Source: an uncultured virus (IMG/VR IMGVR_UViG_3300043786_001842)
Taxonomy: Duplodnaviria > Heunggongvirae > Uroviricota > Caudoviricetes
DNA length: 64,000 bases
Virus record (IMG/VR): IMGVR_UViG_3300043786_001842
Direction: 5' to 3' (one strand)
Under the pieces are notes generated by a model, which was given only the letters and a program-made list of their open reading frames with translations, made no database searches and had not been told where the DNA came from. The translations under genes and the position numbers were made by a program. The first letter of the stretch is position 1. Each line of letters begins with the position of its first letter. Of this stretch, positions 4,522-60,981 are shown one piece after another.

Positions 4522-4566
4522 TCCGCAAATGACTGGGCGGGGTGATCCCCGCCCATGGAGAATCTG

Positions 4567-14815: not shown

Positions 14816-16949
14816 TCAGGTAGTTTCCTGCTCGGCGTCCGCGAACACGATCTCGCAAAGATCTGCGAGATCCGGCAGCCCGAGCCACCTCGCGCCGACC
14901 TCGAGCGGGTCGCCGCTGGCCCACGCCTGCATCAGGAGCGACGAGTCGGCGTCGGTCCCGTCCGGCTGGGGGAGGACGAGCCGGCCGCATTGGCCCGTTG
15001 CGTCGATGTTGGTTGCGAGGATGATGGAGGGGTACAGGGACGTCGCGTCGAAATCGACGACGTTCTCGAACACGCGATCCGACTGGTTCCCGCCTATCGG
15101 AGCCCCGGTCGTGTCCATCAGCTGGGGATCGGCTACAACACATTCTTCGTATCGGATCGCGACTCCGACACCGTCCTTTCGGACTGCTGCACGTCTCCGT
15201 GCAAGGTGAGACTATATCACGACTCCTTCCGGAGCCCTTCCTGTTTCCGCCCGCTTGGGCGTACTCCCTTTCGGGATAGTCGTTGAAGGTTGCTCTTAGC
15301 ATTGTTACATGCAAGAGCTTTCCCTGCTGATTGTCTCTATCCTACAGATTTTCAGGGGTCGCCACTCCGTCACCGGGCGGTATCCTACTGTAGTCTTATC
15401 GAGAGTTTCCAGCAATTAAGGAAGTTTAGCGTGCGCATGTAGTTTACGCACCTTGGAATTTGGCGGTGTCCGTCCGCTCCTTGTTCCTGTTTCGGTTGTT
15501 GCTCAACGCGAGACCCCGCTCTCGGTAGAAGACCGCCGCGAGGTTCCGGAGGCAGATGGTCTTCTTCAGCACCTTGTTGAAGCGCGTCCTGGTCATCATG
15601 CTGAGCTGGTAGGCGAGGGCGATGTCCTCGGTCTTCTCCTCCAGGGTCGCCATCGGGACGACGTCCATGAGGCCGTACAGCATGAAGGCCGGGAAGTCTC
15701 TGTAGGAGAGGTCCCGGATGCTGCCCTCGTACTCGACCTTGCTCTCGCCGATCTCGGACCTCAGCGTGAAGTCCAGCCCGTAGCTCTCCTTCTTCCCGGA
15801 CTGCTTTCTCAGCTGGGCGTACAGGAGCATCTGATCGACCCAGAGAGTGTACGAGGCGACGTTGAACGTGTCGCTCCTCTCGGTCGGCTCCGTGTTGAAC
15901 GTGTCGTACTGGTAGTCAGCCAGCGTCCACGGGTGGAAGTCCTTCGGCGTAAAGGCGTCCTCCGGGTCCACGCCGAGCCGCCGAAGGCGGTTCATCAGGG
16001 TGTTGGCGTCGAACGCCATGTTCCACCAGCATATCGCGTCGGGCCGGTCCAGCTCGTTCACGAGATGGAGGAAATCGAGGATGAGGTCGACCTCCGAGTC
16101 GTAGAATCGCACGGTCACCGCCCGGCACCGGGCGTGCTGCCAGCCGTCCGTCGCGACGTCCGTCTCTTCCCCGGTCATCGGGTCCAGCCCGAGCGCCGCC
16201 GCGATGTCCGTCCAGTCTGCCCCCTCTCCCACCATTCCGGCTCTGGCCAGCGGTGTCCGGTTGGCCTCGCACAGCAGCCAGGTCTGGTAGGCCGGGAGCT
16301 CGGACTCGAACTCGGCGATCTGGGGGTTGTCCCGGACGGTCTTTCGCAGCGCGAACTGGGTGACCTTCTTCGACGGCGCGTGGAGGTAGGTGATCAGCGA
16401 GACCGGGCACGGCGCGTCCCGCTCGTCCGGAAATCCGCGGTGCTCGACCGGGTCGACCTCGATGTCGGCGAACGCCAAATCGAGCGGGCTGACCATGTCG
16501 AGGCTGGACTTGAAGTGCTCCATGTAGCGGTCGATGTAGTGGTCGACGAGGTTGACGTCGCTGCCGTGCGCAAACGGGTGGTCATGGATCACGGCGCGGC
16601 GCCGGTTCTGGCCGGGTCCCCGCACCTCCTCGTAGTACCGCTCCTGCCCGGTCAGCTGGGCGACGTGGAGCACGAGATCTTCTATCTTCGACTCGTACGG
16701 CACGCACTTCGATATCTCGACCGCCAACTCCGCGTGCGTCTGGGCTGCCTGGTGGGCTGGTGCCGTGATGTGGTACCGCACGGTCGGGTCCACGTTCTTC
16801 AGCACGCGCTTGGCCTTCTTCCCGTCCGGTGTGATGAGCTTCTCGACGACGAGAACGCACGAGGACTTGCCGAACCACTGCTCGTGGTACCTGTTCTTCT
16901 GGTGAGCCACCACGTTCAGAAGTTGGTGGCTTACTGTGTCTGCTGCCAT
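14816..16949 (-). CDS. polB: Family B DNA polymerase, N-terminal subunit (3'-5' exonuclease + motif A); exons 16949-15446 and 15138-14816
   Basis: ExoI FADIEVD, ExoII WNMAFD, ExoIII YGLMD and motif A DFDATSLYPSII. Splicing gives KFQGAFVADP in frame. Confidence 0.88.
15139..15445 (-). mobile_element. Group I intron, ORF-less (307 nt), in polB
   Basis: Core motifs AATTGCTGGAAA, AATCAGCAG, TCAACGACTAT, GATATAGTC. The 5' exon ends in U paired to G in P1 (GTGCGT/GCGCAC), P10 is CTACA/TGTAG, and the intron ends in G. Confidence 0.9.
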
Positions 16950-27899: not shown

Positions 27900-30225
27900 T
27901 CATGATCCTCTTCAGGTGTGTTTTCGAGGCGCAGTCCGATGGCCTCGAACAGTGCTCGCAGGCCGGCGACCGGCCGGGTGACGCCGCTGCCGCGCGGCTC
28001 GATCCTCTCCACCGAGAACGGGTCTTGGCGTAGGAGGAGGTCGGCGATCATGCCCTCTCGGCTGACGTCGTCCGTCGCGTAGAGGCGCAGGAGCCGCTGT
28101 AGCTCGTCCGGCTCGTTGGCGATCAGGAGGTTCTGCAATTCTTGTTCGCCAAGCCTGATGGGCGTGCTGGAGTGGTGCTCAGTGTTGCCCCGGATGCCCC
28201 TGGAGTTCTTCGTCGGCACCCCTCCGATGGACAGGTGCTTCGCGGACCGGGCGGAGAACTTGCCAGTCGGCTCGTGCCGGAGCTTTATGTAGTAGTTCCA
28301 GCCGAGAACCATCGGCTCCTCGATTCCGACAAAGCGGTCGCGCTCGATCCCGAGGCGGGCGTACGTCTCGTGGAGCCCCTCCAGAGAGATGACGCCGTGG
28401 AACGGGGGCTGGTGGATGAAGATCGGCTCCCATCCGGTGACCACTTCCTCCACCATCGCACGGGCGTCGTCTGGCCCGACGTTGGCCCGCATCCACGCAG
28501 CCTGAGCGGGCGATGTCATCTCGAGGAAGGTCATCATCCGCTCGTACGCCTCCTCCGGCGTCGGGTCCGCCCGCATCGCCGTGGCGACCTTGCCCGCCAG
28601 GAAGTTCAGCTCGCACTCGTACAGCTGGGCCGGGTTCAGGCGGTTCACCACGCCGAGACTGTTCACCACCAGCTCGGCGCGCTCTCCGCCGACCGTCGTC
28701 GGCATCTCCGCGTCGGGGCGGATTTCCGCGATGACTCCTTTACCACCATCGTTTGTGTTCCATGCGAATCGCAACTTCGCACGCGTCCTCCCCGTCATCG
28801 GTGGGGCGACTGCCTCCGCTTTCACGGAGGACCAGACTATATCACGGTCTCGCTCATGCGCGAGACCCCTCCTGTTTCCGCCCGCTTGGGCGTACTCTAC
28901 TCGGTTCGCCTTTCGGCGCCTTTCGATAGTCGTTGGACCTTCGTCCTATAGGACGCTTGGCTGCTGATTACCCAATCCCCGCTTTCTCGGACCATCACGC
29001 TCGCTTTTACAAGCCACGTTGTGGTAGAAGGGCTTCAGGGCGTCCCAGCAATTAAGGAGGTTTTCACCGAAGGGTCACCCCCTCGGGCGGCAATTTTTTA
29101 CCGATTGGAGATCTTCGATCCATTGATGATCTTATTCCGGCGGGCGATCGTGAAGATCAGCACGGTGCCGTCGAACTCGCTCTTGTCGTACCGCCACTTC
29201 CGCTCCGTCGCGTTCGAGCAGCGGCGGTGCCAGTAGGCGACGTCCGCCGTGTAGCCCGTTCCGGCCTGCCCCTGCATGTACGGCCCGAAGGTCGCCGTCA
29301 CCCACTCGCGGAACTCGCGCGCCCGGACCTCGTAGCCGAGCATCTGCGCGTGGAAGCCGTGTTTCTCGAGGTCGGTCTCCGACTGGTTCGAAAATACGTC
29401 GATGTCCATGACCACGCCGTCGCTGTAGAACGGCGTATCGATATCCCAGTTTATCTGCGAGAGCTGGGGGGTCGACAGGTCGAACAGTATGGACTCGTGG
29501 TTGATCCGCCGCCGCGCCAGCAGGACGCCGTCGTGGATTTCCTCCCCGACGTCCGGGAAGCCCCGGTGGTCGCCGTCGCTGCCGTAGAGGTTGACCAGCA
29601 GGTCGTTGGCGTTCAGAGTCACGGCGACCTTCTCGACGCTGGTGTGGGCGAGGCGCTCGGCCGCCGACTCCGATATCACGAGCCCGTCCTCGTACGTCAG
29701 GCCGTCGAGGTTCATGTAGACGGTGCGGAGATTGACGCCGTACATGAAGTTCCCGTCTGCGTCGTGGCACGGCCATCCCTGCATCACGAAGTCGGCCGGA
29801 AGCTCGGCTTCGGCGCCCTGCGGGGCCTCGTCCATCGCCTTGTTCAGCGCCGAGTTGTCCAGTAGGTAGCCGTAGGACTCGGTCAGGTGGTGGGCTGGGG
29901 CCGCGAAGTGGATGGCAGCCGTGCCGTCGGCGTACTCCAGAGCGTAGATGCGCTGGAGAGGGTTCTTCTGGAAGAAGCCGATGACCCGGGCGTCCTGGGG
30001 GACCGTCCTGACGGCGGTGGTGTACGAGCCGAACTTGTTCTCGAATCGCGAAAAGACGCGCGGGCGCTCGGGTGCGTCGAGCACGACCGTCTGGCCGATG
30101 TGCGAGCAGAACATATTTGTGCGACCGCCGTCGCACCTGTTGACCATCGGTTGAAGCAGCTCCTCCGCGAGGAAGTGGTGGTTCCCATCGAAGTCTTCGT
30201 GGTCGCGGATTACTGTGCCTGGCAT
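27896..30225 (-). CDS. rpoB: Multisubunit RNA polymerase beta subunit, C-terminal half (non-virion type); exons 30225-29100 and 28749-27896
   Basis: R.NMFCSH.GQ, GVNLRTVY...YEDGLVIS, spliced GSKISNRYGGKGVI, NSLGVVNRLN, YIKLRH and IRLGEQE. Spliced CDS is 660 codons. Confidence 0.9.
28750..29099 (-). mobile_element. Group I intron, ORF-less (350 nt), in rpoB
   Basis: AATTGCTGGGA, AATCAGCAG, CCAACGACTAT and GATATAGTC. Junction CGG T|AT GGT restores R-Y-G-G-K. Confidence 0.9.
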
Positions 30226-30294: not shown

Positions 30295-32580
30295 CTACAC
30301 CGCGGGGGCCGCCTCGTCCGGGGGCGCCATGAGGGCCGCCTCGTCCGGAGTTCCGGGTAGGGGGACGAGCCCGAGGAGTTCCTCCTCGATCCGGGCATCC
30401 ACGATCTCGCGGAAGGTCGCATCTCCCTCGTACAGGTCCTTCCAGTTCCGCTGGGCGAACTTCTGTGTCGTCCGGCCGTCGGGAGCCTCGATGAACAGGT
30501 GAGCGCCCGCGCCCTTCAGCGCCTTCTGGCTCTTCAGGAAGTTCAGGTTGGTCCAGGCGTTGTCGAAGCCTGCGTCCGTCAGGACGAGCTCGAACTGGCG
30601 GCCGTCGTAGGAGAGACGCGACTTGACAATGGTGCAGCGGACGACCTTGCCGGGGATCGCGAAACCCTCGTCGCGAGCGTTGGTGAGAGACGAGGACGGC
30701 GCCATCTTCAGGAAGTAGTCGGAGTACTGCGGAAAGCCGGTGCCGCCGGGGCAAGTCTCGTCCATGTTGAGGTACTGGATGCGCTTCGGCTTGGGCGGGC
30801 CGCCGGAGGGGCCCGGGTCCACGCGGATGTGGTTCACGGCGTAGATCGTGATGTTGGGCTCGCCGATCATTCCCGCGAGCCGCTGGGCGAAGGCGTTGTT
30901 GGCCTTGGCCTGGGCCCCGGACTCGTACAGCAGGGAGCCCATCTCCTCCTTCCCGTTCATCACGTCGTCGCTCTGCAAGGCTGCCACGGTGTCGATGATG
31001 ATCACGGTCGGGATCGGGACGCGCTCCCCGGTGCGCGGGTCGTCGGTCCAGATCTCGGAGTTCGGGTCGGCCATCATCGCCAGCTTGGTGTTGATGATCC
31101 GCTTCACGAAGGCGTAGATCTTCTCCAGGGGGACGGGAGTGAAGCGGCGGTATCGGCGCTTGACCTCCTCCAGCGATAGGCCGGTGATGTCCGCGGTGCG
31201 CTCATCCGACCACGCGTTCTCTAAATCGAAATGGAAGACGCTACCCTGTTCGTGAACGCTCACTAGAGCGAACGCCTCCTGGACACAGAGGGTCGTGTTG
31301 TGCGTGACGATGTAGCTGTCGGTGAGGTAGAGGTGCTCAGGGTCCTCGACCATGATGCACATCTGCTCCTCCGCTACCTGTTCTTTGGCGACAGATACGA
31401 TGTAACGAGCTGGCGCATTCTTTGTCGAACGGCTCCACGTCGACGCTTTTCTCGACGTGAAGAATGGATTGAAGTTCACACGGACGTTCACGGTGTACTC
31501 CACCGGGCGTCCCTCCATAGTGCGGTCGTTGACTGCGAGGATCGCCACGCCACCCATCGACTGAACGAGCGAGACGACATCATCGGCGAGCCTGGGGGAC
31601 GTCGTGTGGAACCGGGTGCGGTTCTTACTGTTGCTTCCGTCTGTGTCCATGAGACCATTGAGAATGGCGAGCCGATTCTCGTAGGAATCGTACAGGTACT
31701 CATCAGGGATGAATTTCGATTTGGAGAGGACGTCGAGTCTGAGACGCGCGATCTCCGACGTAATCCGATTGAGATACCCACCCGTCCCACTCTGCTCCGA
31801 ATCGCTGATGTAGCAGTGAGTGCAGGATCCGGTGTCACGTTTGCGTAAAGCGAACCCGTCAGTGAGAGACTTGGCAACGCGACCGACAACCTCGTCGTAG
31901 TCGTTCTCATTCACGGCAAAGTCGATCCGGTGGTCAGCCAGCGAACCATTCCCTATCAGGACGCCGAGCAAGTAAGGATCGATCACGTGGTCAACAGCCC
32001 GGTACTCTACCGGGGCACACAGCGGGACGCGGTAGTTGTACCCGCGACCGTAGGAAAGATTCCCGTTCAGAAGATCGGCGGTGGTCTTGACCACCCATTT
32101 GTGTTTTCCGGGCCTACAGACCTTCCAGAGGTGATCAATGCCGCATCTGGTTGAGGTGCCGTCCCGAAAAGTCACGCGGTACACATCCTTCACCCCCTGC
32201 GGGTAGATACCGATGACCTTCGTCGCCTTGCCGGAACGGGAGAAAACCTCGTCACCGACGCGCAGATTGCCGAAACGCTTGGGGCCGCCGGGAGTCTGTA
32301 CCTGGGTGGACACCGGCTGCTCTTTTCCACAGCCTGTGTAGCCGATCTTCATGATCAGCTTGCCCATTGGCATCCCGCTGAACAATTCGTATTCACCCGT
32401 ATCGTGGTTCATGAAGTACCGGGCGTTGTAGAAGTCCAGCACGTCGATCCCGGTGGGCACTGGGCGGAATGCGCGAGAGTCCTTGATGCCCATTTCACCG
32501 ACGATGCCGTCGAGGGCATCCATGAGGCCACCACTCGGGGCGGCCACGGGTGCAGCAGTCTTCTTTTTGGCCTGAGCCAT
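30295..32580 (-). CDS. recA: RecA/UvsX-like recombinase with intein
   Basis: PTGIDVLD, Walker A GYTGCGK|TT split by the intein, FDLEN, Walker B IIIDTVA, VNHIR, PGG.G and IVKSR. Confidence 0.88.
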   Translation of the reverse strand: MAQAKKKTAAPVAAPSGGLMDALDGIVGEMGIKDSRAFRPVPTGIDVLDFYNARYFMNHDTGEYELFSGMPMGKLIMKIGYTGCGKEQPVSTQVQTPGGPKRFGNLRVGDEVFSRSGKATKVIGIYPQGVKDVYRVTFRDGTSTRCGIDHLWKVCRPGKHKWVVKTTADLLNGNLSYGRGYNYRVPLCAPVEYRAVDHVIDPYLLGVLIGNGSLADHRIDFAVNENDYDEVVGRVAKSLTDGFALRKRDTGSCTHCYISDSEQSGTGGYLNRITSEIARLRLDVLSKSKFIPDEYLYDSYENRLAILNGLMDTDGSNSKNRTRFHTTSPRLADDVVSLVQSMGGVAILAVNDRTMEGRPVEYTVNVRVNFNPFFTSRKASTWSRSTKNAPARYIVSVAKEQVAEEQMCIMVEDPEHLYLTDSYIVTHNTTLCVQEAFALVSVHEQGSVFHFDLENAWSDERTADITGLSLEEVKRRYRRFTPVPLEKIYAFVKRIINTKLAMMADPNSEIWTDDPRTGERVPIPTVIIIDTVAALQSDDVMNGKEEMGSLLYESGAQAKANNAFAQRLAGMIGEPNITIYAVNHIRVDPGPSGGPPKPKRIQYLNMDETCPGGTGFPQYSDYFLKMAPSSSLTNARDEGFAIPGKVVRCTIVKSRLSYDGRQFELVLTDAGFDNAWTNLNFLKSQKALKGAGAHLFIEAPDGRTTQKFAQRNWKDLYEGDATFREIVDARIEEELLGLVPLPGTPDEAALMAPPDEAAPAV
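31297..32322 (-). mobile_element. Class 3 intein with LAGLIDADG endonuclease (342 aa)
   Basis: Starts EQPV and ends VTHN|T. Shows DHLW, QMCIMV and THN (WCT triad), and LAGLIDADG motifs LLGVLIGNG and ILNGLMDTDG. Confidence 0.88.
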
Positions 32581-32666
32581 GCGTTCACTCCTTGATGAGA
32601 GATATAAAGTCGTTTTCAAACTTTTCGTCCGAAAACTTTTGAGTCAGATCGGAACTGCAGAGATGG

Positions 32667-38251: not shown

Positions 38252-38326
38252 TGGTGCCGCTTGTCTGTATCGAACAGACGACCTACGCGTTACGAGTGCG
38301 TTGCTCTACCACTGAGCTAAAGCGGC
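38252..38326 (-). tRNA. tRNA-Thr(CGT)
   Basis: GCCGCTT acceptor stem, D arm TAGCTCAGTGGTAGAGC, anticodon loop CTCGTAA, T loop GTTCGAT and encoded CCA. Confidence 0.95.
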
Positions 38327-49611: not shown

Positions 49612-52098
49612 TCACTCTTCGATTTCAGCCGGCAGGACGGCCGCGGAGACGACGCGGTCCCCGTCCTTCAGGGAGACCAGCTTCACGCCCATGGCGGAGC
49701 GTCCCAGCTCCTTCACGTCGCCGACGCGGAGGCGGACGGTCATGCCGAGCTCCGTGGCGATCAGGACGTTGTCGCTATCCCGCACGATCAGGGCCTCGAC
49801 GAGCTTGGCACCCGGCTTCGGCTTGATCAGGATCCGCCCCTTCCCGCCCCGCCCCTGGGTTGGGAACTGCGAGCTCGAGACACGCTTCCCGATCGCGTCA
49901 GAGGTGACGCAGAGGATGAGCTGGTCCTCGCTCTCGATCTTCCCGATGGACACGACGCGGTCCCCGCCCGAGATGAGGTCCATCCCGCGGACGCCGCCGG
50001 AGTCGCGCTTGGTCAGCCGGATGTCGCTCGGGCTGAAGCGCGTGCCGATTCCGCGATCGGAAGCGAGGAACACGTCTCCGCCGTTCTCCAGCAAGATTCC
50101 CCCGGCGATGTCGTCGTTCGCCGAGCTGCGGAAGAAGACCAGGCGCTTGGTCATCTTGCTGGAGAGGTCCGCCAGCCTGACGCGCTTGACCTCGCCGGAG
50201 ACCGTCGCGACCACCACCTCGGCGTCCTCCGGGATGGGCCACGGGGCCGCGAGCAGTGCCTTCACCTTCTCGTCGGTCTCGAATCCGAGATTGGCGGCGT
50301 GGCGCCCGCTCCCGCCCTCCGGCACCTCGTGGGCCTCGAGACGGACCACGACGCCGCTGTCGGTGATGGCGTGCAGCCTGTCGTGGCTGTGACAGCTGAC
50401 GACGGCGTTCAGGAAGTCGTCGGACTTCAGGGTTGCACCCCTCCGCCCCTTCCCGCCGCGATTCTGCGCCCGGAACTCCTCGATGGACGTGCGCTTCAGA
50501 TACCCCCGGCCGGTCACAGCCAGGAGCACCTGCTCCGGGAGGACGAAGTCGCGGGCGTCCTGGGCGGCGAAGGAGACGATCTTGGTGCGGCGGGGCCGGA
50601 CCAGGCGCCGCTCGGCCTCGGCCAGTTCGGCCTCGATGTGCGCTACGACCTGGGCTGGGTCGGTGAGCAGCCCGAGCAGCCGGTCGATCTCGACCCCGAG
50701 GGCCGCAGCCTCGGCTTCCAGCTCGTCGCGGCGCAACCCGGTGAGGCGGCGCAGCTGCATGGTGAGGATGGCCTCGGCCTGCTTCGTCGTGATGTTGATC
50801 AGGGCGCGCAGCTTCGCCACCGCCTCTGTCTCGTTTGGGGACTCCTTGACGGCCGCCACGACGTCGTCGATGCACCCGATGGCGGCCACCAGGCCCTCGA
50901 GGACGTGCTGCCGCTCTCGGTCGCGGGCGAGCTCCGCGGCGGCGAGGCGCGTCACGCAGTCGGCCCGGAAGTTGGCCCAGCTCTGGATCAGCTGGACAAC
51001 CGACATGACGACTGGCTGCCCGCTCTCGTCGAGGACCGTCGCGTTCATCGAGAAGGCGGACTCGGCCGCCGTGTGCTTGTACAGCTTCTCCAGCACGATC
51101 CCGGGGTCCTCGCCCTGCTTGAGGTCGACGACGATGCGGACGCGGACCTCTCCGCTGGCGCGGTCCTTGGTCGTCTCGTCGCGCACTTCGCGCACCTCGG
51201 GGACGACGGGCTCGCCTCGCTGCTTGGTCTTCGGGTCCCGGCGGCCGGCGGCCGCGTCGCCGATGCTTCCCAGCACGCCGTCGGTGGTGAGGCCGTACGG
51301 GATGCTCGTGAAAACTATCCGCCCACCGGAACGCCCCTCGCCGTCCTCGATAACGGCCTCGCCGCGCATCCGCATGGATCCCTGGCCGGTGGTGTAGGCC
51401 GCGGCGATCTCGGCCGGACCCGACAGCAGGCCGCCGGTCGGGAAGTCCGGACCCGGCATGACCGCGAGGATCTCGGACACCGTCGCCTCGCGCCCCTCCA
51501 CCATGGCCCGGACGACGACGCGGGCGGCTCGGGCGAGCTCGGCCGAATTGTGTGGCGGGATCTGGCTGGCGAAGCCGACTCCGATCGAGCCGCCTGGCAC
51601 GCCGTTCAGCAGCACGGTCGGCAGCTTCGCCGGCAGGAGGGCTGGCTCGGTGAACCGGCCGTCGTAGTTCGGACGATGCGGGACGGCGCCGTCGTCGACC
51701 CCGTCCAGGACCAGCCAGTCCGCGATGGGTGAGAGCTTCATCTCCGTGTACCGCGGGGCGGCCGCCCCCGAGCCGTCGATCGCCCCGACGGAGCCCTGCG
51801 GGGTGATGAGGAGGACGTTGTTGATGTGCTCGCGGGCCAGGCGGCACAGGGCATCGTACACGGACGCGTCGCCGTGCGGGTGCCATCGGGCCAGCACGGA
51901 CCCGACGATCGATGCGCTCTTCACGGTCGCCTTGGAGCTCGGCGCGCTGCGCATGGCCTCGTACAGGATGCGCCGGTGCACCGGCTTCATGCCGTCTCGC
52001 GCGTCGGGGATGGCCCGCGCGTTGCTGGAGATGGCGAAGACGGCGTACTTGTCCGCGAACAGCGTCGCGAGATCGCCGTCGATGATGTTTTCTTCCAT
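49612..52098 (-). CDS. gyrA: DNA gyrase subunit A
   Basis: RAIPDARDGMKPVHRRILY, HPHGDASVY, AAAPRYTE (catalytic Tyr), GPDFPTGG, GyrA-box QNRGGKG and beta-pinwheel repeats. Confidence 0.95.
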   Translation of the reverse strand: MEENIIDGDLATLFADKYAVFAISSNARAIPDARDGMKPVHRRILYEAMRSAPSSKATVKSASIVGSVLARWHPHGDASVYDALCRLAREHINNVLLITPQGSVGAIDGSGAAAPRYTEMKLSPIADWLVLDGVDDGAVPHRPNYDGRFTEPALLPAKLPTVLLNGVPGGSIGVGFASQIPPHNSAELARAARVVVRAMVEGREATVSEILAVMPGPDFPTGGLLSGPAEIAAAYTTGQGSMRMRGEAVIEDGEGRSGGRIVFTSIPYGLTTDGVLGSIGDAAAGRRDPKTKQRGEPVVPEVREVRDETTKDRASGEVRVRIVVDLKQGEDPGIVLEKLYKHTAAESAFSMNATVLDESGQPVVMSVVQLIQSWANFRADCVTRLAAAELARDRERQHVLEGLVAAIGCIDDVVAAVKESPNETEAVAKLRALINITTKQAEAILTMQLRRLTGLRRDELEAEAAALGVEIDRLLGLLTDPAQVVAHIEAELAEAERRLVRPRRTKIVSFAAQDARDFVLPEQVLLAVTGRGYLKRTSIEEFRAQNRGGKGRRGATLKSDDFLNAVVSCHSHDRLHAITDSGVVVRLEAHEVPEGGSGRHAANLGFETDEKVKALLAAPWPIPEDAEVVVATVSGEVKRVRLADLSSKMTKRLVFFRSSANDDIAGGILLENGGDVFLASDRGIGTRFSPSDIRLTKRDSGGVRGMDLISGGDRVVSIGKIESEDQLILCVTSDAIGKRVSSSQFPTQGRGGKGRILIKPKPGAKLVEALIVRDSDNVLIATELGMTVRLRVGDVKELGRSAMGVKLVSLKDGDRVVSAAVLPAEIEE

Positions 52099-52191
52099 GG
52101 TTCTTCCTAGTGTGGTGCCACTGTGATGATATCGTTGCGAGGGCCGGCGGCGAAAAACGAGGAGCGCAGTCTCGCCGGACACGGTTTTCCT

Positions 52192-54595: not shown

Positions 54596-57500
54596 TTACG
54601 CGTCGATCATCTCCTCGGCCACCTGCGCGGCCTGGATGAGCTCTCGCCGGGCCTCGACGCTGCCGGAGCTCATCATGCTGCCGATGAACTCGCCGGCAGC
54701 GTCGAAGTCGCCGACAGTGACGCGGACCAGGCGGCGGGTCGCCACATCGAGCGTCGTCGAGCCGAGCTCTTCGGACTGCATCTCTCCCAGGCCCTTGATG
54801 CGCATGATGGAGATCCCGCGCTGCGACTCGGTCTCGATCACCTCCGCCAGCTCGAGGAGGTGGTAGCAGCTCCGCCCGGCCACCTCGATCCGCCCGGCGG
54901 GTAGCGACCCGAGCAGCTCCAGGACGGCGGTCCTGGCCTCTGTCACGGCGGCCATGAACGGCTCGCCGACGACGGTGGTGAAGAAGCGCCCGCCGGGCGC
55001 GAGGCCGGAGACGACGGCCTGGCCGTCCTCGAGCGTGAAGCCCTCGACCCCCTCGCAGCCGTCCGCCTCGCGCTTCTCGACGATCGCCTCGGCCATGGCC
55101 GTCGGGTCATTCACGTCGAGGCCGAGCGCGTGCGACACGTCGTCCGGCGCGGCCCCCGCGGACCGGGCTGCCCGCTCGATGGCGTTCCGGACCAGCGAGG
55201 CGCACCCAGCGAGGCGCAGCAGGTACGCGTCATCGCCCGTCACCTTCTTGGCGCGACGGCGGAAGAAGTCCGCCAGCGCCCGGTCGTCCTTCAGGTACGT
55301 CCGCTTGCCCTTCTCCGTGATCCGGTAGAGCGGCGGGAGGGCGAGGTAGACGTGGCCGCGCTCGATCAGCGGGCGCATGTGCTTGAAGATGTGCCCGAGA
55401 AGCAGGCACTCGATGTGGGAGTTGTGGACGTAGGCGCCGCTCCCGAGCCGGAAGTTGTGGTGCTCCCGGACCGTGAGGTCGTAGACCGGCTCGCACCCGT
55501 CCTCCGACGAGTCCCACGTCGACGCCAGGGTGCGCTTCACGACGAGGCCCCCCGCCAGCCGGTCCCCCGCAGCGAGGTCCCGGGCCTGCCTGTAGGTCCC
55601 GTCCTCCATGCGGTACTGGTGGTCCGGAGTGCACACGTCCTCGAGCTCGTTGTCCTCGATCCTGACAGACACGTACTCGGACGTCCACTTCGTCATCCGC
55701 GGGGCCTCCAGCAGGACCTCGACCTCGTTCCCGTCGCGGTCCAGCGCGTAACCGGTCAACGGCGGCAGGCCGGCCCGCTCCCGCTCCGCCAGGAGCCAGA
55801 ACGGAACCAGCGAGTCGACCGTGTCGACGAGCGTGTCCCCGACAAAGCACCCGTCGATGTCGGCATCCGCCATCACGATGACTTTCCCGTACCGCAGTTT
55901 CGCGATCGCCGCGTCGACGTCCGCCTCCGGCGCTCCCCACGACATGAACCCGGTGCCAATGGCCGCCGCCAGGTCGGAGAGCTCGGCGTTCGAGAGGACC
56001 TTGGTGGCGTCCGCCTCCCATGAGTTTACATTTACATTCGATGAGGGTCGCAAATCCCCATCCGTCTTTCGACTGCTCACGGTCTCCCGTGAGATTAGAC
56101 CATGTCACGATCTCCTTCGGAGACCCTTCCCATTTCGCATGCCATAAGCTTGCATGCTACTCCCTTTCGGGATGGCCGTTGAGCGTTGATCTAACGGAAG
56201 TACTCGTCTGAGACTTTCTTCCAAATTCTCTTCGATGCAATCGTAGACACGTATCCTCGACGAATCCCTAGTTCTCGTTCGATTACTGGAGGAGTTTCAC
56301 CAGCAGCCAATTTCAAACAGATCTGTCGGATCAAGGATTCGGGATATTTGCACATTGGGTGCTCAGTTCCAGAACGACGTCGCACAAGACCATTTGCGAC
56401 TGCATGCTGGACATTCTCTTTACCTGATACCCATTCGAGATTGCTTGCCGCATTGTTTCTTTTCGAACCGTCAATGTGATTGACCTGGCTCTGTCCAAAA
56501 CGCGGCTTAGGGAGGAAAGCTTCAACGACTAAGCGGTGCACGCGTTCACTTTTGCGTTCACCACTTTTGTCGTACATCTTCACCTGCATGTAACCCCGTC
56601 CATTGATAGTCTGAATCAGGAGGGTATCACCATTAGCTACTCGCCCGAGATTGCTGACACGGTAGCCGGGATGGTGCACACAAGGTTTCCAGTTCTCTCC
56701 AGGTAGCGTCTCAACTTGAGATTTGCGTATTGGCCGTCTCAGGTTGAGACGCTGGAGGAGACCAGTTACAGCACCGACAGTTGTTTCCAACTCGTGTGCC
56801 ATTTCTGGATTGGACTTGTGCAAGTAGTTTTCGGTGAGGAATGCTACATGCTGCGGATTTGATATGCTGAGTGACTTCATTTGAAAACCTCTGAATTATA
56901 CCATATTCATTGGTTCTCAACAATTAGACCCTTCGTTGCCGGTTGTCTCTACCTTCGCATTTTCAGGGGTCGCCGCTCCGTCACCGGGCGGTATCCTAGC
57001 GATAGTCTAGCAAGACTTTCTGGCAGTTAGAGAAGTTCACAGCGCGGATCGCTCCGCGCAGCCGCTAATTTGCTAACGGTTTTCCCTTGAGGCTGAAGAT
57101 AGCCTGGGTTTTGCGATCACGCCCAAGGGCACAGCTGGAACCTGCACTATCCATTCATCTTTGACAGCCGGCGTTACTGACTGTCGCCCGCATATTCGCG
57201 CGGGCCTCGCGGTCTCCCGCGAGATGAGACTATATCTTCGCCCCAGCGGGGCGTCTCCCGTTTCCCCGACACTCGTCGGGTACGTCCTTTCGGACTAGTC
57301 GTTGAACCTTCGCCTGTTTTCTTACACGCGGGATTGCAGTCCCGCCCCAGCCTCACGGCGCCAGGTGGCCGGAGGGCTTCAGCCCTCGAAGTCCCCCTCG
57401 CTGTAGCCGAGGTAGGAAATGGCGTCATCTTTGCTGACGCGCACGGTGGCATTCAGAAGACAGTCGTGCTCCAGGATGACCGTCATGCCGGAGGTGCTGA

Positions 57501-60500
57501 TGCGGTGGCTGGCTTCGATGCGGAATCGCGCCAGGGCGTCGTCGACGCCGTTGCGCTCGAACGTCGGAAACGACGCATTCTCGCTGTCGCCGAACTGGAA
57601 GTTCGTCTTCGGATGGCCGTAGTAGTTCAGGATGAGCCTGATCTTGTCCTCGGCGAGATACGGCGCATAGATTGCCTTGATCTCCTTCACGGAGATGTGC
57701 TGGTTGCCCGGAGTGATTTCGCTGCGTCGGAACATCACCGACCGGCGCACCTGCTCGCGAAGCGCCTCTTCACGCTCGAGCGTCGCGACGAGTTCGCGAG
57801 CGATTTCCAGACGGGAGCGCGTGGCCGAGGAGGCCTGGCGCTCGCGGAGCTGGCGCTCGCACTCGATGAAGTACTTGCGAGCGGCGCGACCCCTCTCGTT
57901 GCGCTCCACCATGGCCAGTTCCTTGGCCATGTCGAGGCTGATGTGATAGTCGATGCGGTTCGATCCGCCGCCACGGTTTCCGACTGCGCTCCCGTTTTGG
58001 AGTGCAGTCGTAAAGTCTTGATTCTCAACGAATTCATACTTCTCGACCCGGTCCTTGATCCAGTTGGAGAAGTCCTTGCCAACCTCCAGGAATGCGTGGA
58101 GCTCCCTGGCGTTCACCGTCGGGACCACTGCATTCCCGACCGGCTGCTCCGTCAGCTTCATAAGGATTTCGTCTTGTGTATCCATATTGGTTCCTTCAAA
58201 TTTCAGATAGAGGCCTCGCTGCAACGAGGCTGGTGGTGGTGTACAGGCGCTTGGCTGCTGATTTCCCAATCCCCACACTTTTCAAGCCGTCGCGCTCGCC
58301 CTTGCGGGCCACGCTGTGGCAGTGGGGCTCTCAGGGAGTTCCAGCAATTAGAGAGATTTTACGAGAGCAATGGTTACTTACCCTCGACGATGAACAGCTC
58401 GGTCTCCGCGGAGTCCTTCGACGAGCAGTCCTTCAGCTTGCCGAAGTTCTTCATTCCGAAGACGCCGGCGTCCTGCTTTCGGACCTGCTCGCGGGCCTTC
58501 GCGGCCGCGACGCGGGCCTTCGCGGCGTTGATCGCACGCTGACAGAGAAGGCGCGCCTCCTTCGGATTCTCCTCCAGCCACCGCTGCAGGCCGGCGTTGA
58601 CGGTCTTCTGGACAGCACCCTGGGCGTCACTGTTTGACAATGTCCTATATTTAAACGGCGTTCGTTACTCACCGTCTAGTTCCAATCTACCAAATTCCCG
58701 TTCGGTCACAGACCATGGATCCATTCCACGCACTAGCACATCTTCGAGTACTTGAACCACATCGGAAACGTATGGGATCCGCAAGAGAGGATAGCCGCGC
58801 TCTTGACAGAAATTAGTCTTGAATGCGTCCCTTTCCTGCATCACCAACATGTCTACCTTCCAATTTGGCCCGACTATAAAATGCTGGCGACCATCGTACT
58901 CGATGAGCAGCGATTCGTCAACGAGAAAATCGAACTTGAGTTGACGCTGAAAAACACATCCTTCCAATGCCACTTCACGTTCATACGACCGGCCATGGCT
59001 AGTCAACCAATTTTCGATAGCCTGCACTGCCTTAGATGTCTTATTCCTTAAAGCACAATACGGACATCTACAACCGCCTAGAAACAGGCCGGACGACATG
59101 TCAAATGTCTGCCCACATGTCTCATGTCTAAATTCGACCTTCTCCCTGAAATTGCGGTACTTGCCGAGAACTGAGTACTCAGTTCCGACCAGCACCGCAA
59201 TTTCCCGAACGAAGTCGTCATGAGTGCGACGGTGTTTTTTGTTGCACTGCGGGCAGCCGGCATGTGGCTTACGGACACGACGTAGCATCGTATTGGGCGA
59301 AATTTCCCATTCGTATCCACACTGATGGCGTGTCAGAATGGGCGTCATCGTGTTAACGTATTTTCCAAGCACGAGATATTCGCCAGGGAAGTGCTTCTCC
59401 AGCTCGGCCACGTACTCAGAGTGTGTCTTCCTGACCGCGTTCCCGCACTTCGGGCAGCGATCGCCACATACGAATCGACTCGGACGCATCTCGAAGATGT
59501 ATCCGCATTCGATGTGCTCGAATCGGATCTTGTGATGGGTGGTTTGGTAGAGGTCGAGCAATCGATACTGATTCTGCCCGCGATCGCGGACTATCTCAGC
59601 AAATTGCTCGTGGGTCATCTTTGCCGGCATCCTATTCTCCTATTTAGAGGACAATCAAATGTTAGCGACGACAACCGGATTGGAACTACTTACAGTTTCC
59701 TGTAAGAGAAGACTATATCTTCACGGTATGACCGTGCTTCCCATTTCCGCACCACTCGGCGCGTACTCCCTCGCGGGATAGTCGTTGAACGTTCACCCTC
59801 GCGGGTGCTTCGCTGCTGATCGCCCAATCTCTCAACTTGTCGAACCGTCGCGCTCGCCGTTCCCGGCCACGCTGTGGTATGAGAGCTCTAAGGGGTTTCC
59901 AGCAATTAGAGAAGTTTTACAAGAGCAGTCATCTACCCTTCGATTGTCCTTTGAAGACTGGAGAACGATGTCTGATCGCGACGAGGACCATAACGCCCTC
60001 GAAGCAATCTGGAGCCTCGATCTTGAGGTCTCTTTCTTTCACCGAAACGAGATTGTTATTCTCGATGTATCCGCGCACGATCTGCGGCAGAGCCATGCGA
60101 ACGCCCTGAACATGTGTGCCGCCTTCAGGCTGACGAACGCAGTTGCAAAAGCCTTGGATGCTGTCGCGGCCATATCCGCTAGTCCAGGCTACCGCAATGG
60201 CGACCCGGATTTCGCTGTCCTCGGGATTTTCGAAGTGGGCGACTTTCTTGAAGAGCACCTTGTCCCCGGCCAGCGACTCGATAAAGGCATCAAGACCTCG
60301 CTCTTCGCGAAAGACTTCGTCTTTCGTGCCGGTTTCGTCCTTCCACTTCAAACGCAGTGTAAGGCCGGGATTCAGATAGGCCCGCTCGCGCAGCATGCGC
60401 TGGAGGGCTTCCCGACCGGGAATCATGGAACTCGCATCCTTGAACACGATCGGGTCGAGGATAAACTCAATCTTGGTGCCGGTACGTTTCTTGTTTCTCT

Positions 60501-60981
60501 CCAGCACTGCGCTCTCGATGTCCCGGATGCGTTTGGCACTTCTGAACTCGATGGTGTGCTCTTGACCGTCGCGCCACACGGTCGCCTTCAGATACGTCGA
60601 GGTCGCCGTGACCGCCTTCAAGCCGGTTCCGTGTAGACCGCCGGAAATTCCATAGGACGTACCGAACTTTCCGCCTGAGTGAGCTTTGGTAAGAACGACT
60701 TCGAGGGTGGACAGACCGGGGTGCTTGGAGTGCTCCTCGACCGGGATGCCACGCGCCTCATCTTCGACACTGATGAGATGGGATGCAGCGTCAACGGAAA
60801 TGGTGATGGTGCTTCCATGCCCATTCATGTGCTCGTCAATCGCATTATCGATCACCTCGCGCACCGCTACTGCCACCCCGTCATCATCCGCGCTTCCAAG
60901 GTACATTCCAACACGAGCCCTGATAGCATCGAGGATCTCCAAAGTGTCGATGTCTGCTGCAGTGTATGTCTTTTTCGACAT
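54596..60981 (-). CDS. gyrB: DNA gyrase subunit B; exons 60981-59935, 58643-58380, 57151-57076, 56028-54596, plus a mini-intein
   Basis: GHKL motifs EVIDNAIDE, HSGGKF and GGLHGTG. Spliced FKGQSKGTLSN, VEGDSAG, KGKPLN and DADIDG|SHI. Joined CDS is 940 codons in frame. Confidence 0.92.
55421..55849 (-). mobile_element. Mini-intein (143 aa) in GyrB TOPRIM
   Basis: CFVGDT start, CTPDH block B, VYDLTV..HHNF and YVHN|S. No endonuclease domain. Confidence 0.92.
56029..57075 (-). mobile_element. Group I intron 3 of gyrB (1047 nt)
   Basis: AACTGCCAGAAA, AACCGGCAA, TCAACGGCCAT and GACATGGTC. Junction CCG T|TA AAC gives P-L-N. Confidence 0.85.
56191..56880 (-). CDS. Intron-encoded NUMOD4-HNH homing endonuclease
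   Basis: ENWKP...YRVSNLGRV, VHRLVVEAFL and VNHIDGSKRNN..SNLEWVS.KEN..HA. Confidence 0.92.
   Translation of the reverse strand: MKSLSISNPQHVAFLTENYLHKSNPEMAHELETTVGAVTGLLQRLNLRRPIRKSQVETLPGENWKPCVHHPGYRVSNLGRVANGDTLLIQTINGRGYMQVKMYDKSGERKSERVHRLVVEAFLPKPRFGQSQVNHIDGSKRNNAASNLEWVSGKENVQHAVANGLVRRRSGTEHPMCKYPESLIRQICLKLAAGETPPVIERELGIRRGYVSTIASKRIWKKVSDEYFR
57152..58379 (-). mobile_element. Group I intron 2 of gyrB (1228 nt)
   Basis: P1 GAGGGT/GCTCTC, AATTGCTGGAA, AATCAGCAG, TCAACGACTAG and GATATAGTC. Junction GGT|GAT restores VEGDSAG. Confidence 0.9.
57379..58185 (-). CDS. Intron-encoded AntA/AntB antirepressor-domain protein
   Basis: VNARELHAFLEVGKDFSNWIKDR...DYHISLDMAKELAMVERNERG..ARKYFIECE. 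GAAGGA RBS. Confidence 0.85.
   Translation of the reverse strand: MDTQDEILMKLTEQPVGNAVVPTVNARELHAFLEVGKDFSNWIKDRVEKYEFVENQDFTTALQNGSAVGNRGGGSNRIDYHISLDMAKELAMVERNERGRAARKYFIECERQLRERQASSATRSRLEIARELVATLEREEALREQVRRSVMFRRSEITPGNQHISVKEIKAIYAPYLAEDKIRLILNYYGHPKTNFQFGDSENASFPTFERNGVDDALARFRIEASHRISTSGMTVILEHDCLLNATVRVSKDDAISYLGYSEGDFEG
58644..59934 (-). mobile_element. Group I intron 1 of gyrB (1291 nt)
   Basis: P1 AAGGGT/GCTCTT, AATTGCTGGAAA, GATCAGCAG, TCAACGACTAT and GATATAGTC. Ends ...ATAGG|ACA TTG. Confidence 0.88.
58665..59630 (-). CDS. Intron-encoded endonuclease: three Zn-binding repeats plus Vsr/EDxHD-like nuclease domain
   Basis: Three H..CG...CPxC repeats, then FDF...IEYDGRQH...D..K..FC..G..LLRIPY. 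Confidence 0.85.
   Translation of the reverse strand: MPAKMTHEQFAEIVRDRGQNQYRLLDLYQTTHHKIRFEHIECGYIFEMRPSRFVCGDRCPKCGNAVRKTHSEYVAELEKHFPGEYLVLGKYVNTMTPILTRHQCGYEWEISPNTMLRRVRKPHAGCPQCNKKHRRTHDDFVREIAVLVGTEYSVLGKYRNFREKVEFRHETCGQTFDMSSGLFLGGCRCPYCALRNKTSKAVQAIENWLTSHGRSYEREVALEGCVFQRQLKFDFLVDESLLIEYDGRQHFIVGPNWKVDMLVMQERDAFKTNFCQERGYPLLRIPYVSDVVQVLEDVLVRGMDPWSVTEREFGRLELDGE

What the first reader, a model, noticed from the sequence alone, without database searches (positions are those of the whole stretch)
57152..58379. Group I intron carrying an AntA-antirepressor-like gene instead of a homing endonuclease
Seen: gyrB intron 2 has an intact ribozyme core. The loop between GCGCCTGT and ACAGGCG (the P6 region) holds a 268-aa ORF with its own RBS, an N-terminal AntA/AntB domain and a ~130-aa C-terminal region with no HNH, GIY-YIG, LAGLIDADG or PD-(D/E)xK motif that I can recognise. 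Established: phage group I intron ORFs are normally homing endonucleases. Inference: either the intron is a safe harbour for a regulatory cargo gene tied to gyrB expression, or AntA is the DNA-binding module of an unrecognised nuclease or maturase.
Basis: partly seen in the sequence, partly recalled or inferred. Interest (0 to 1): 0.85.

Follow-up and report, generated by a model that had tools for sequence, protein, structure and literature searches.

The report
Antirepressor-like gene inside a gyrB intron
A lake-water phage's DNA gyrase gene is interrupted by a self-splicing intron that carries, where such introns normally carry a DNA-cutting "homing" enzyme, an intact gene of the phage antirepressor type with no recognisable nuclease part.

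Summary
The phage gyrB (minus strand) is split by three group I introns and a mini-intein. Intron 2 (58379..57152) has a U.G 5' splice site, a terminal G and a complete core that is 75-78% identical to the Rfam-scoring intron 1, with compensatory pair changes. Its P6a loop holds a 268-aa ORF with a Shine-Dalgarno site.

The ORF has a clear AntA domain (E 2.5e-28), a long helical linker and a rare C-terminal module. That module has 38 relatives among 1.84 billion representative proteins. There it follows AntA, Rha, Bro-N, KilA-N or, once, T5orf172 heads.

In 80 related intron loci, all six P6-loop ORFs are homing-endonuclease types and none is AntA-like.

Best reading (0.5): a non-nuclease cargo gene in the endonuclease slot, carried along by the endonucleases of introns 1 and 3, which lie 264 and 76 nt away. 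A new endonuclease family (about 0.27) is not excluded. Splicing and activity are untested.

The parts
59935..60981 (-). gyrB exon 1 (ATPase and transducer part, 349 codons)
   Evidence: Pfam HATPase_c and DNA_gyraseB. It ends CAA TCG AAG GGT, just before the intron 1 P1.
58644..59934 (-). gyrB intron 1, group I, with a 321-aa Vsr/DUF2726-like endonuclease ORF (59630..58665) downstream of P9
   Evidence: Rfam RF00028 at 79.2 bits. The ORF hits phrog_559, phrog_9084 and phrog_7140, annotated as endonuclease or homing endonuclease. The 5' splice site after AAGGGU was read from the frame and from alignment A3.
58380..58643 (-). gyrB exon 2 (264 nt), ending ELFIVEG
   Evidence: phmmer to solved GyrB chains, residues 379-463, E 1.4e-15.
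57152..58379 (-). gyrB intron 2, group I, the subject of the finding
58362..58370 (-). Internal guide sequence of intron 2; it pairs with the exon 2 end (P1) with U58380.G
   Evidence: The fold of the ORF-less core pairs 58386-58378 with 58370-58362.
58243..58249 (-). P6a 5' strand (CGCCUGU)
   Evidence: It pairs with 57317-57311. Intron 1 has a short closed hairpin at this place.
57311..57317 (-). P6a 3' strand (ACAGGCG)
58191..58197 (-). Shine-Dalgarno-like GAAGGAA in front of the ORF
   Evidence: Read directly from the sequence.
57379..58185 (-). 268-aa ORF: AntA head (residues about 10-96), helical linker (97-148), C-terminal module (about 150-268)
57382..57738 (-). C-terminal module (residues 150-268): winged-helix-like part (162-225) and a small beta-beta-alpha tail with invariant His240, Asp/Glu241 and Cys242
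57254..57259 (-). P3 3' strand (GGGAGA); it pairs with 58356-58351 across the ORF
   Evidence: There are two compensatory pair changes against intron 1 (CUUCUC/GGGAAG), read.
57076..57151 (-). gyrB exon 3 (76 nt; DSAGSSCALGRDRKTQAIFSLKGKP)
   Evidence: Sequence. Only this join keeps the reading frame open into exon 4.
56035..57075 (-). gyrB intron 3, group I, with a 229-aa HNH_3 + NUMOD4 endonuclease ORF (56880..56191) in its P6 loop
   Evidence: Pfam. It is 71-76% identical to the Rfam-scoring intron at 15187-15484.
54596..56034 (-). gyrB exon 4, with a 143-aa mini-intein (about 55849..55421) in the DADIDG|SHI motif
   Evidence: Translation. DNA_gyraseB_C at the C-terminus. The intein borders were read by eye.

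Best explanation
Intron 2 is a self-splicing group I ribozyme. It is a paralogue of intron 1 in the same gene. Its P6a loop is the place where relatives carry homing endonuclease genes. Here it holds a phage accessory gene of the shuffled antirepressor-like class.

The protein has an APSES/KilA-N-type AntA head, a long helical linker and a rare C-terminal winged-helix-like module. It most likely binds DNA or a partner protein and does not cut DNA.

It is transcribed with gyrB and translated from its own Shine-Dalgarno site, either on the precursor or on the excised intron.

The intron needs no nuclease of its own. Splicing makes it harmless. It also lies 264 nt from intron 1 and 76 nt from intron 3, and both of those encode endonucleases. 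A break made by either at an empty allele should copy intron 2 along by co-conversion (trans homing).

Shown here: the anatomy, the domain content, the rarity and partners of the C-module, and the lack of a nuclease match. Inferred: splicing, expression, non-catalytic function and the hitch-hiking.
For: - **No nuclease family by sequence.** Pfam, PHROGs, NCBIfam and PADLOC give none.
- **Partners of the module.** Of its 38 relatives, 17 have AntA, 9 Rha, 4 Bro-N and 3 KilA-N heads, with 2 counted twice. One has a T5orf172/MUG113 GIY-YIG-like domain. Six have no named head. So the module sits where KilA-C sits in ordinary AntA proteins (13 of 18 AntA proteins scanned), and once it follows a nuclease-type domain, as an accessory would.
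- **Conservation.** His240 is the only invariant polar residue, 37 of 37.
- **Charge.** The protein has pI 5.7 and the family median is 6.0. The neighbouring endonucleases have pI 7.9 and 10.0, and KilA-C domains 8.0-9.9.
- **Composition.** GC3 is 0.81, like the phage's own genes (0.61-0.95). The two endonuclease ORFs have 0.57 and 0.48.
- **A probable paralogue.** A Rha-headed relative, P0006, shares the same sources, contig count and longest contig (136,127 nt).
- **One relative in context.** L086 is a free-standing gene after a DNA polymerase gene, with no intron.
- **Precedent for trans homing.** T4 MobE mobilises the nrdB intron with its defunct I-TevIII (PMC2790892, abstract read). Co-conversion of flanking markers is described in the review PMC3984707 (passages).
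Against: - In 80 related intron loci from viral contigs, all 6 ORFs found in the P6 loop are endonuclease types: LAGLIDADG_2, GIY-YIG twice, HNH_3, phrog_314, and a relative of the intron 1 ORF. None is AntA-like. Occupants of this slot normally arrive and persist as nucleases.
- The ORF is intact and keeps every conserved residue of its family, including the invariant His240 with Asp241 and Cys242. These sit at the end of a strand in a beta-beta-alpha tail. That tail (residues 226-268) was barely tested by the fold searches.
- Heads of this kind (Bro-N, KilA-N) are known partners of GIY-YIG/T5orf172 nucleases (PMC8096241, passages).
This is also typical of homing endonuclease gene families.
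- No function is known for any member of the family.
Confidence: 0.5

Rival explanations
1. The ORF is a homing endonuclease of an undescribed family. The AntA head (in relatives Rha, Bro-N or KilA-N) would recognise the target. The constant C-module would cut, using the invariant His240 with Asp/Glu241, perhaps as a minimal beta-beta-alpha-metal site. It would drive homing of intron 2 into intronless VEG|DSAG alleles.
For: - It occupies the slot that holds endonucleases in 6 of 6 related introns with a P6 ORF and in the neighbouring intron 3.
- The ORF is intact and has its own ribosome-binding site.
- The architecture, with variable heads on a constant module, resembles modular endonucleases.
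- His240 is invariant in 37 of 37, Cys242 is kept in 33 of 37 and an acid at 241 in 29 of 37. These lie at the end of strand 235-239, followed by strand 247-251 and helix 252-259.
- Three pairs of relatives seem to share contigs.
- One relative sits directly after a DNA polymerase gene.
- The same intron arrangement is present in runs of 2020 and 2024.
Against: - No nuclease family or fold was found by any search.
- No conserved metal ligand lies in the helix. Position 253 is acidic in only 25 of 37, and positions 254-258 vary.
- The protein and its family are acidic.
- The module follows a T5orf172 nuclease-type domain in P0036, which would then carry two nucleases.
- GC3 is native to the phage, unlike the two clear endonuclease ORFs.
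Confidence: 0.27
2. The ORF is a maturase that binds the intron RNA and helps it fold or splice.
For: - Intron-encoded proteins can take on maturase roles (review PMC3984707, passages).
- The basic helical linker (residues 97-150, pI 10.6) could bind RNA.
Against: - Known group I maturases are LAGLIDADG proteins (PMC3984707). This ORF has no such domain.
- The core is complete and closely related to ORF-less introns in the same window, at 28813-29135 and 15187-15484, and to 74 of 82 ORF-less relatives elsewhere. Those manage without such a protein.
- Family members occur outside introns (L086).
Confidence: 0.05
3. The ORF is a recent, functionless passenger that happened to land in a tolerant loop and has not yet decayed.
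For: - Peripheral loops tolerate insertions.
- No function is known for the family.
- No RNA contig of the two RNA runs lay on the ORF (weak, because cover was sparse everywhere).
Against: - The ORF is full-length with no frame breaks.
- All near-invariant family residues are kept.
- The predicted fold is confident (pLDDT 91).
- GC3 is fully adapted to the phage.
- DNA contigs from 2020 runs are identical over the parts of intron 2 they cover.
Confidence: 0.1

Closest known systems
Phage group I introns with a homing endonuclease gene looped out of a peripheral helix (T4 td/I-TevI type; six endonuclease families listed in the review PMC3984707)
   Same: A self-splicing group I intron in a conserved site of a DNA-metabolism gene. 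The ORF has its own ribosome-binding site and sits in a peripheral loop (P6a). Intron 3 of the same gene and 6 related introns elsewhere carry endonucleases in this loop.
   Different: [quoted passage not shown] It belongs to the antirepressor-like class. That I-TevI lies in P6a of the td intron is recalled, not checked here.
T4 nrdB intron with defunct I-TevIII, mobilised in trans by the neighbouring MobE (Wilson and Edgell 2009, PMC2790892, abstract read)
   Same: An intron without a working nuclease of its own persists next to active endonuclease genes. Co-conversion gives it mobility. This is the mechanism proposed here for intron 2 between introns 1 and 3.
   Different: There the intron ORF is a decayed endonuclease. 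Here the ORF is intact and of an unrelated family. The helpers are endonucleases of two flanking introns in the same gene, not a free-standing gene. Nothing was tested here.
AntA-KilAC (and Rha-, Bro-N-, KilA-N-KilAC) antirepressor-like proteins of phages and prophages
   Same: The same head (PF08346, E 2.5e-28), the same size and the same head-linker-tail layout. Of 18 AntA proteins taken from viral contigs, 13 have KilA-C at the matching position. The head domains shuffle in the same way (PMC6145125 passages).
   Different: The tail is not KilA-C. There is no Pfam hit and hhalign gives probability 0.13%. The tail is acidic where KilA-C is basic. It is also rare: 38 representatives, none in 50,697 phage records. 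None of the ordinary ones examined lies in an intron (no group I intron in 7 loci).
IStrons (group I intron plus IS200/IS605 transposase genes; PMC3984707 passages; PMC4227781 search listing only)
   Same: A group I intron in bacteria or phages whose ORF is not a classical homing endonuclease. Splicing makes the composite harmless.
   Different: IStron ORFs lie at the 3' end and are transposases that give mobility. Here the ORF lies in P6a and has no recognisable mobility enzyme.
T5orf172/GIY-YIG endonucleases with Bro-N/KilA-N-type DNA-binding parts, and the domesticated CapR of the PLE satellite (PMC8096241, passages)
   Same: They show that heads of this class serve as targeting modules of homing nucleases, and that such proteins can lose nuclease function and act as DNA-binding regulators. 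One relative of the C-module (P0036) carries T5orf172.
   Different: The intron ORF itself has no T5orf172 or GIY-YIG domain.

Membership tests
Group I intron (Rfam RF00028) | 5' splice site after a U that forms a U.G pair in P1 with an internal guide sequence | tested here: met
   Exon GAGGGU (58385-58380) pairs with GCUCUC. The fold pairs 58386-58378 with 58370-58362. Against intron 1 the exon G-to-A change is matched by a C-to-U change in the guide.
Group I intron (Rfam RF00028) | Terminal G at the 3' end, with an in-frame exon join | tested here: met
   G at 57152. The join gives ...VEG|DSAG..., the conserved GyrB TOPRIM motif.
Group I intron (Rfam RF00028) | Conserved core P3-P9, including the P7 strands | tested here: met
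   MFE fold of the ORF-less join. 75-78% identity to intron 1 with compensatory changes in P3, P6a, P8 and P9. The P7 strands GACUA and UAGUC are present. P7 is a pseudoknot and is not shown by the MFE fold.
Group I intron (Rfam RF00028) | Score at or above the Rfam gathering threshold | tested here: inconclusive
   24.4 bits against a threshold of 50, for the 3' half only. The model cannot bridge the roughly 930-nt ORF insert. The joined sequence was not sent to the tool.
Group I intron (Rfam RF00028) | Splicing of the RNA | not testable with these tools
   No contig in two RNA and two DNA runs joins 58380 to 57151. Cover was sparse.
AntA/AntB antirepressor domain (PF08346) | Match to the Pfam model above its gathering score | tested here: met
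Antirepressor in the functional sense (binds and inactivates a phage repressor) | A partner repressor and an immunity region | not tested
   No repressor gene was looked for. The window shows replication and transcription genes. The name is a family label only.
KilA-C / ANT domain (PF03374) | Sequence or profile match of the C-terminal module | tested here: not met
   No Pfam hit at E<=1. hhalign of 37 C-modules against 14 KilA-C domains gave probability 0.13%. A language-model look-alike score of 0.86 to KilA-C clusters is below the level that counts.
[quoted passage not shown] | Family catalytic motif detectable by sequence profile | tested here: not met
   No such Pfam or PHROG family for the ORF, nor for 37 of its 38 relatives. 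The exception is T5orf172 in P0036, which lies outside the shared module.
[quoted passage not shown] | Nuclease fold | tested here: inconclusive
   No nuclease scored well in Foldseek or VIA-align searches of the whole model and of the C-module. Only low-probability LAGLIDADG rows appeared (probability 0.01-0.14). Residues 226-268 were barely covered by any row.
[quoted passage not shown] | Site-specific cleavage of the intronless allele | not testable with these tools
   This needs protein and a DNA substrate.
MerR/excisionase-type winged helix | Helix-turn-helix, beta-hairpin wing and third helix superposable on solved members | tested here: inconclusive

The most novel reading that the evidence does not exclude
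The constant C-terminal module, with its invariant His240-Asp/Glu-Cys motif in a beta-beta-alpha tail behind a winged helix, is the catalytic part of a seventh or later family of homing endonucleases. This family would use swappable APSES/KilA-N-class heads (AntA, Rha, Bro-N, KilA-N) to choose targets. If so, part of the large and unexplained 'antirepressor-like' gene class of phages would be selfish nucleases, not regulators.
Probability: 0.25. Interest if true: 0.85.

Novelty: new variant of a known kind. Interest (0 to 1): 0.62.

Why it matters
Intron ORFs in phages are treated as homing endonucleases almost by definition. The review read here lists six endonuclease families, and IStron transposases as the only other intron-borne enzymes.

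An intact, compositionally native antirepressor-type gene in the endonuclease slot has two possible meanings, and both are of interest.
- Group I introns can carry accessory genes that serve the phage, persisting by riding on neighbouring endonucleases.
- A new nuclease family is hidden in the poorly understood AntA/Rha/Bro/KilA class.

The locus also gives a simple test bed. One gene holds three introns, two clear endonucleases and one odd ORF. The odd ORF is 268 aa and its target is defined (VEG|DSAG of GyrB).

Tried and rejected
- **Window genome.** No whole genome is held for the window, so the probable paralogue P0006 could not be located.
- **Phage records.** Megablast of the gyrB region found nothing. 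tblastn with the whole ORF found 765 records, all through the head only, with none covering 80% of the query. tblastn with the C-module alone found nothing at E<=0.01.
- **Word-index protein search.** The search with residues 120-268 found only the protein itself.
- **Genomic context of relatives.** Eight scans of viral, genome and metagenome contigs with proteins or alignments that carry the C-module (A2, A6, A7, P0010, P0019) found one usable locus, L086. So the question of relatives inside versus outside introns rests on one context.
- **Loci matched through the head.** L011, L012 and L049 matched over most of the ORF, but L011 carries another tail, judged by eye from its translation. None of the 7 loci scanned has a group I intron.
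- **KilA-C kinship.** Rejected by hhalign.
- **PADLOC and NCBIfam.** Nothing for the ORF.
- **Sequencing runs.** No contig of the two DNA and two RNA runs joins 58380 to 57151, so neither a spliced RNA nor an intronless allele was seen. No RNA contig lay on the ORF or on the gyrB exons. Cover was sparse (8 and 4 of 30 bins), so this says nothing either way. The joints at 57315/58245 and 58270-58300/59885-59889 have sides of 19-24 nt. They come from related intron cores, not from this locus.
- **Earlier notes of this scan.** They held only ordinary prophage antirepressors.
- **Literature.** Full-text searches for 'group I intron' with 'antirepressor', for 'KilA-N' with 'homing endonuclease' and 'intron', for 'group I intron' with 'Bro-N', and for 'group I intron' with 'gyrB', 'bacteriophage' and 'homing endonuclease' found no report of such an intron ORF. 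Subscription journals are not covered.
- **Promoters and terminators.** The scan showed nothing above the shuffled expectation in the intron.

Full report

Yes, and at the stated bases. The minus strand of 61.0-54.6 kb encodes a GyrB protein in four exons.
- Exon 1 (60981..59935) carries HATPase_c and DNA_gyraseB.
- Exon 2 (58643..58380) aligns with residues 379-463 of solved GyrB chains and ends ELFIVEG.
- Exon 3 (57151..57076) starts DSAG.
- Exon 4 (56034..54596) ends in DNA_gyraseB_C.

gyrA lies just downstream, at 52182..49612.

Intron 2 is 58379..57152. The last exon base, 58380, is a U. It closes a P1 helix (GAGGGU with GCUCUC) with a U.G pair. The last intron base, 57152, is G.

Rfam finds only the 3' half (24.4 bits, E 0.003), because a roughly 930-nt insert splits the model. 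Other results support the core.
- The two halves are 78% and 75% identical to intron 1, which scores 79.2 bits.
- The differences between the two introns keep the pairs. P1 is GAGGGU/GCUCUC against AAGGGU/GCUCUU. P3 is UCUCUC/GGGAGA against CUUCUC/GGGAAG. P8 and P9 also change on both strands (read).
- An ORF-less join folds at -141.5 kcal/mol into P1, P3 (across the ORF), P4, P5, P6/P6a, P8, P9, P9.1 and P9.2.

The ORF sits between the P6a strands CGCCUGU (58249-58243) and ACAGGCG (57317-57311). It is 268 aa, and GAAGGAA lies 5 nt before its ATG.

**2. The protein**

Residues 24-96 match AntA/AntB (PF08346) over the whole model, E 2.5e-28. PHROGs of 'anti-repressor Ant' match residues 3-145. 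Nothing matches beyond that.

An exhaustive HMMER search of 1.84 billion representative proteins with residues 125-268 found 38 relatives at E<=0.001 (28 at <=1e-10, 4 at <=1e-30). The module is always at the C-terminus. The heads in front of it, out of 38, are:
- AntA in 17;
- Rha in 9;
- Bro-N in 4;
- KilA-N in 3 (two proteins have two heads);
- a T5orf172/MUG113 domain in 1;
- no named head in 6.

This is the head-shuffling known for antirepressor-like proteins (PMC6145125 passages). But the tail is not the usual KilA-C. Of 18 ordinary AntA proteins from viral contigs, 13 have KilA-C at the same place. A profile-profile comparison of 37 C-modules with 14 KilA-C domains gave probability 0.13% (P0038 and P0039 were left out as truncated).

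The module is absent from 50,697 phage records. It was also absent from all but one of the collection scans.

**3. Structure**

With the family alignment, AlphaFold2 gave pLDDT 91.0 for the whole protein (P0009, P0013, P0014, P0021 and P0039 were left out of that alignment). It gave 85.7 for residues 150-268.
- Residues 97-148 are two long helices.

The last 43 residues form strand-strand-strand-helix and were covered by almost no row. A nuclease fold there is not excluded.

Conservation across 37 modules:
- invariant: His240 and Ala255;
- near-invariant: Pro175, Phe221, Ile182, Leu186 and Phe266;
- Cys242 in 33;
- an acid at position 241 in 29.

No conserved metal ligand lies in the following helix.

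The protein is acidic (pI 5.7; family median 6.0). The endonucleases of introns 1 and 3 have pI 7.9 and 10.0, and KilA-C domains 8.0-9.9.

**4. Context in the gene and the genome**

Intron 1 (59934..58644) carries a 321-aa Vsr/DUF2726-like ORF annotated in PHROGs as a homing endonuclease.

Intron 3 (57075..56035) is 71-76% identical to the Rfam-scoring intron at 15187-15484. It carries an HNH_3 + NUMOD4 ORF in its own P6 loop.

Intron 2 is thus 264 nt and 76 nt from two endonuclease-bearing introns.

GC3 separates the three ORFs. The AntA-like ORF has 0.81, inside the range of the phage's genes (0.61-0.95). The two endonuclease ORFs have 0.57 and 0.48.

P0006, a Rha-headed relative with 44% identity in the module, comes from the same sources, with the same number of contigs and the same longest contig (136,127 nt) as the ORF. 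It is probably a paralogue elsewhere in this phage. It is not in the window.

The DNA is from lake-water metagenomes. Contigs from 2020 runs cover the exon 2 borders and the 3' splice site of intron 2 without a single difference. Runs of 2024 hold 93-100% of the words.

**5. What relatives of the intron carry**

A 23-letter pattern from the P5-P6 core found at least 120 places in viral contigs. DNA was held for 80 loci with 82 matches.
- In 62 matches the span to the J6/7-P7 motif is at most 150 nt (60 of these at most 60 nt).
- Fifteen matches lacked my motif. By eye, 14 of them have a short P6 with a variant motif and one (L119) has an ORF.
- Six matches in all have an ORF in the P6 loop.

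The six ORFs are:
- L090: LAGLIDADG_2;
- L098 and L136: GIY-YIG (the same sequence in both);
- L119: HNH_3;
- L122: phrog_314 'homing endonuclease';
- L166: a relative of the intron 1 ORF (BLASTP E 1e-19; phrog_559 and phrog_9084).

None of the 80 loci (368 kb) encodes anything like the AntA ORF or its module (tblastn, E<=0.01). The one relative of the module seen in context (L086) is a free-standing gene directly after a complete DNA polymerase gene, with no group I intron nearby.

**6. Weighing**

The slot argues for a nuclease: six of six occupants elsewhere are nucleases. The intact state of the ORF and the invariant His argue the same way.

The protein itself argues against it, on several counts.
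- No nuclease family or fold was found.
- The best-matching part is a winged helix.
- His240 is the only invariant polar residue.
- The protein is acidic.
- Its composition is native to the phage.
- In one relative the module sits behind a nuclease-type T5orf172 domain, where an accessory DNA- or protein-binding part would be expected.

I therefore favour (0.5) a non-catalytic accessory protein lodged in the endonuclease slot. The intron would be kept by neutral splicing and by co-conversion when the endonucleases of introns 1 or 3 cut an empty allele. This is the trans-homing route shown for the T4 nrdB intron and MobE (PMC2790892, abstract) and described in the review PMC3984707 (passages).

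A new endonuclease family gets about 0.27, a functionless passenger 0.1 and a maturase 0.05. None of these is decided by computation. The cleavage assay on the VEG|DSAG site is the decisive test.

**7. Novelty**

The review of bacterial group I introns lists six endonuclease families, and IStron transposases as the other ORF type (PMC3984707). Four full-text searches found no intron ORF of the AntA, Bro or KilA class. Subscription journals are not covered. I rate this a new variant of a known kind, of moderate to high interest.

Noticed in passing
window 54596-60981 (minus strand): One gene, gyrB, carries four selfish elements. They are three group I introns (two with endonuclease ORFs of different families) and a 143-aa mini-intein without an endonuclease domain, at about 55849..55421 in the DADIDG|SHI motif.
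   Followed up: partly
window 59934..59800 and 58379..58243; splice sites 59935 and 58380: Introns 1 and 2 are paralogues (75-78% identical cores) at two sites of the same gene. Both sites end in RAGGGU, matched by guide sequences GCUCUU and GCUCUC. The 5' exons also share AUCG a few bases upstream. This is the pattern cited as circumstantial evidence for spread by reverse splicing (review PMC3984707), here in a phage protein-coding gene.
   Followed up: partly
window 59935-59964: The Rfam alignment of intron 1 runs 30 nt into exon 1. The reading frame and the likeness to the intron 2 P1 place the true 5' splice site after 59935.
   Followed up: yes
window 28813-29135 and 15187-15484 (minus strand): Two further ORF-less group I introns (69.6 and 65 bits). 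The first splits a gene whose downstream part matches RNA polymerase Rpb2 domain 6. The second splits a gene with no Pfam match. That makes five group I introns in 64 kb.
   Followed up: partly
window 30295-32619 (minus strand): A 774-aa ORF with a LAGLIDADG_3 domain at residues 316-374, possibly another intein or an endonuclease fusion.
   Followed up: no
window 58896-59072, 59399-59668, 56341-56491, 56571-56733: Contigs from two metatranscriptome runs match the endonuclease ORFs of introns 1 and 3 without a difference. None lay on the gyrB exons or on the AntA-like ORF. DNA carry-over in the RNA libraries cannot be excluded.
   Followed up: no
window 57315/58245 (joints): Contigs in a DNA run and an RNA run join the two P6a strands with only 4 or 17 letters between. 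These are related introns with a closed, ORF-less P6a in the same lakes. The matching sides are only about 21 nt, so they are not alleles of this locus.
   Followed up: partly
L011 3279-3366; L005 5500-5584: In unrelated viral contigs fetched through the AntA head there is a type II hammerhead ribozyme (55.9 bits). There is also a C4 antisense RNA (58.9 bits) just upstream of an AntA-KilAC gene, which is the known P1 immI arrangement.
   Followed up: no
window 4555-6879 (plus strand) and 38255-38326: A 774-aa protein made of 13 FG-GAP repeats (E 8e-184), and one tRNA gene.
   Followed up: no
L105/L106 (one viral contig): Two introns of the same subfamily lie 653 nt apart on one 7.4-kb viral contig. 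This is another case of clustered paralogous introns.
   Followed up: no
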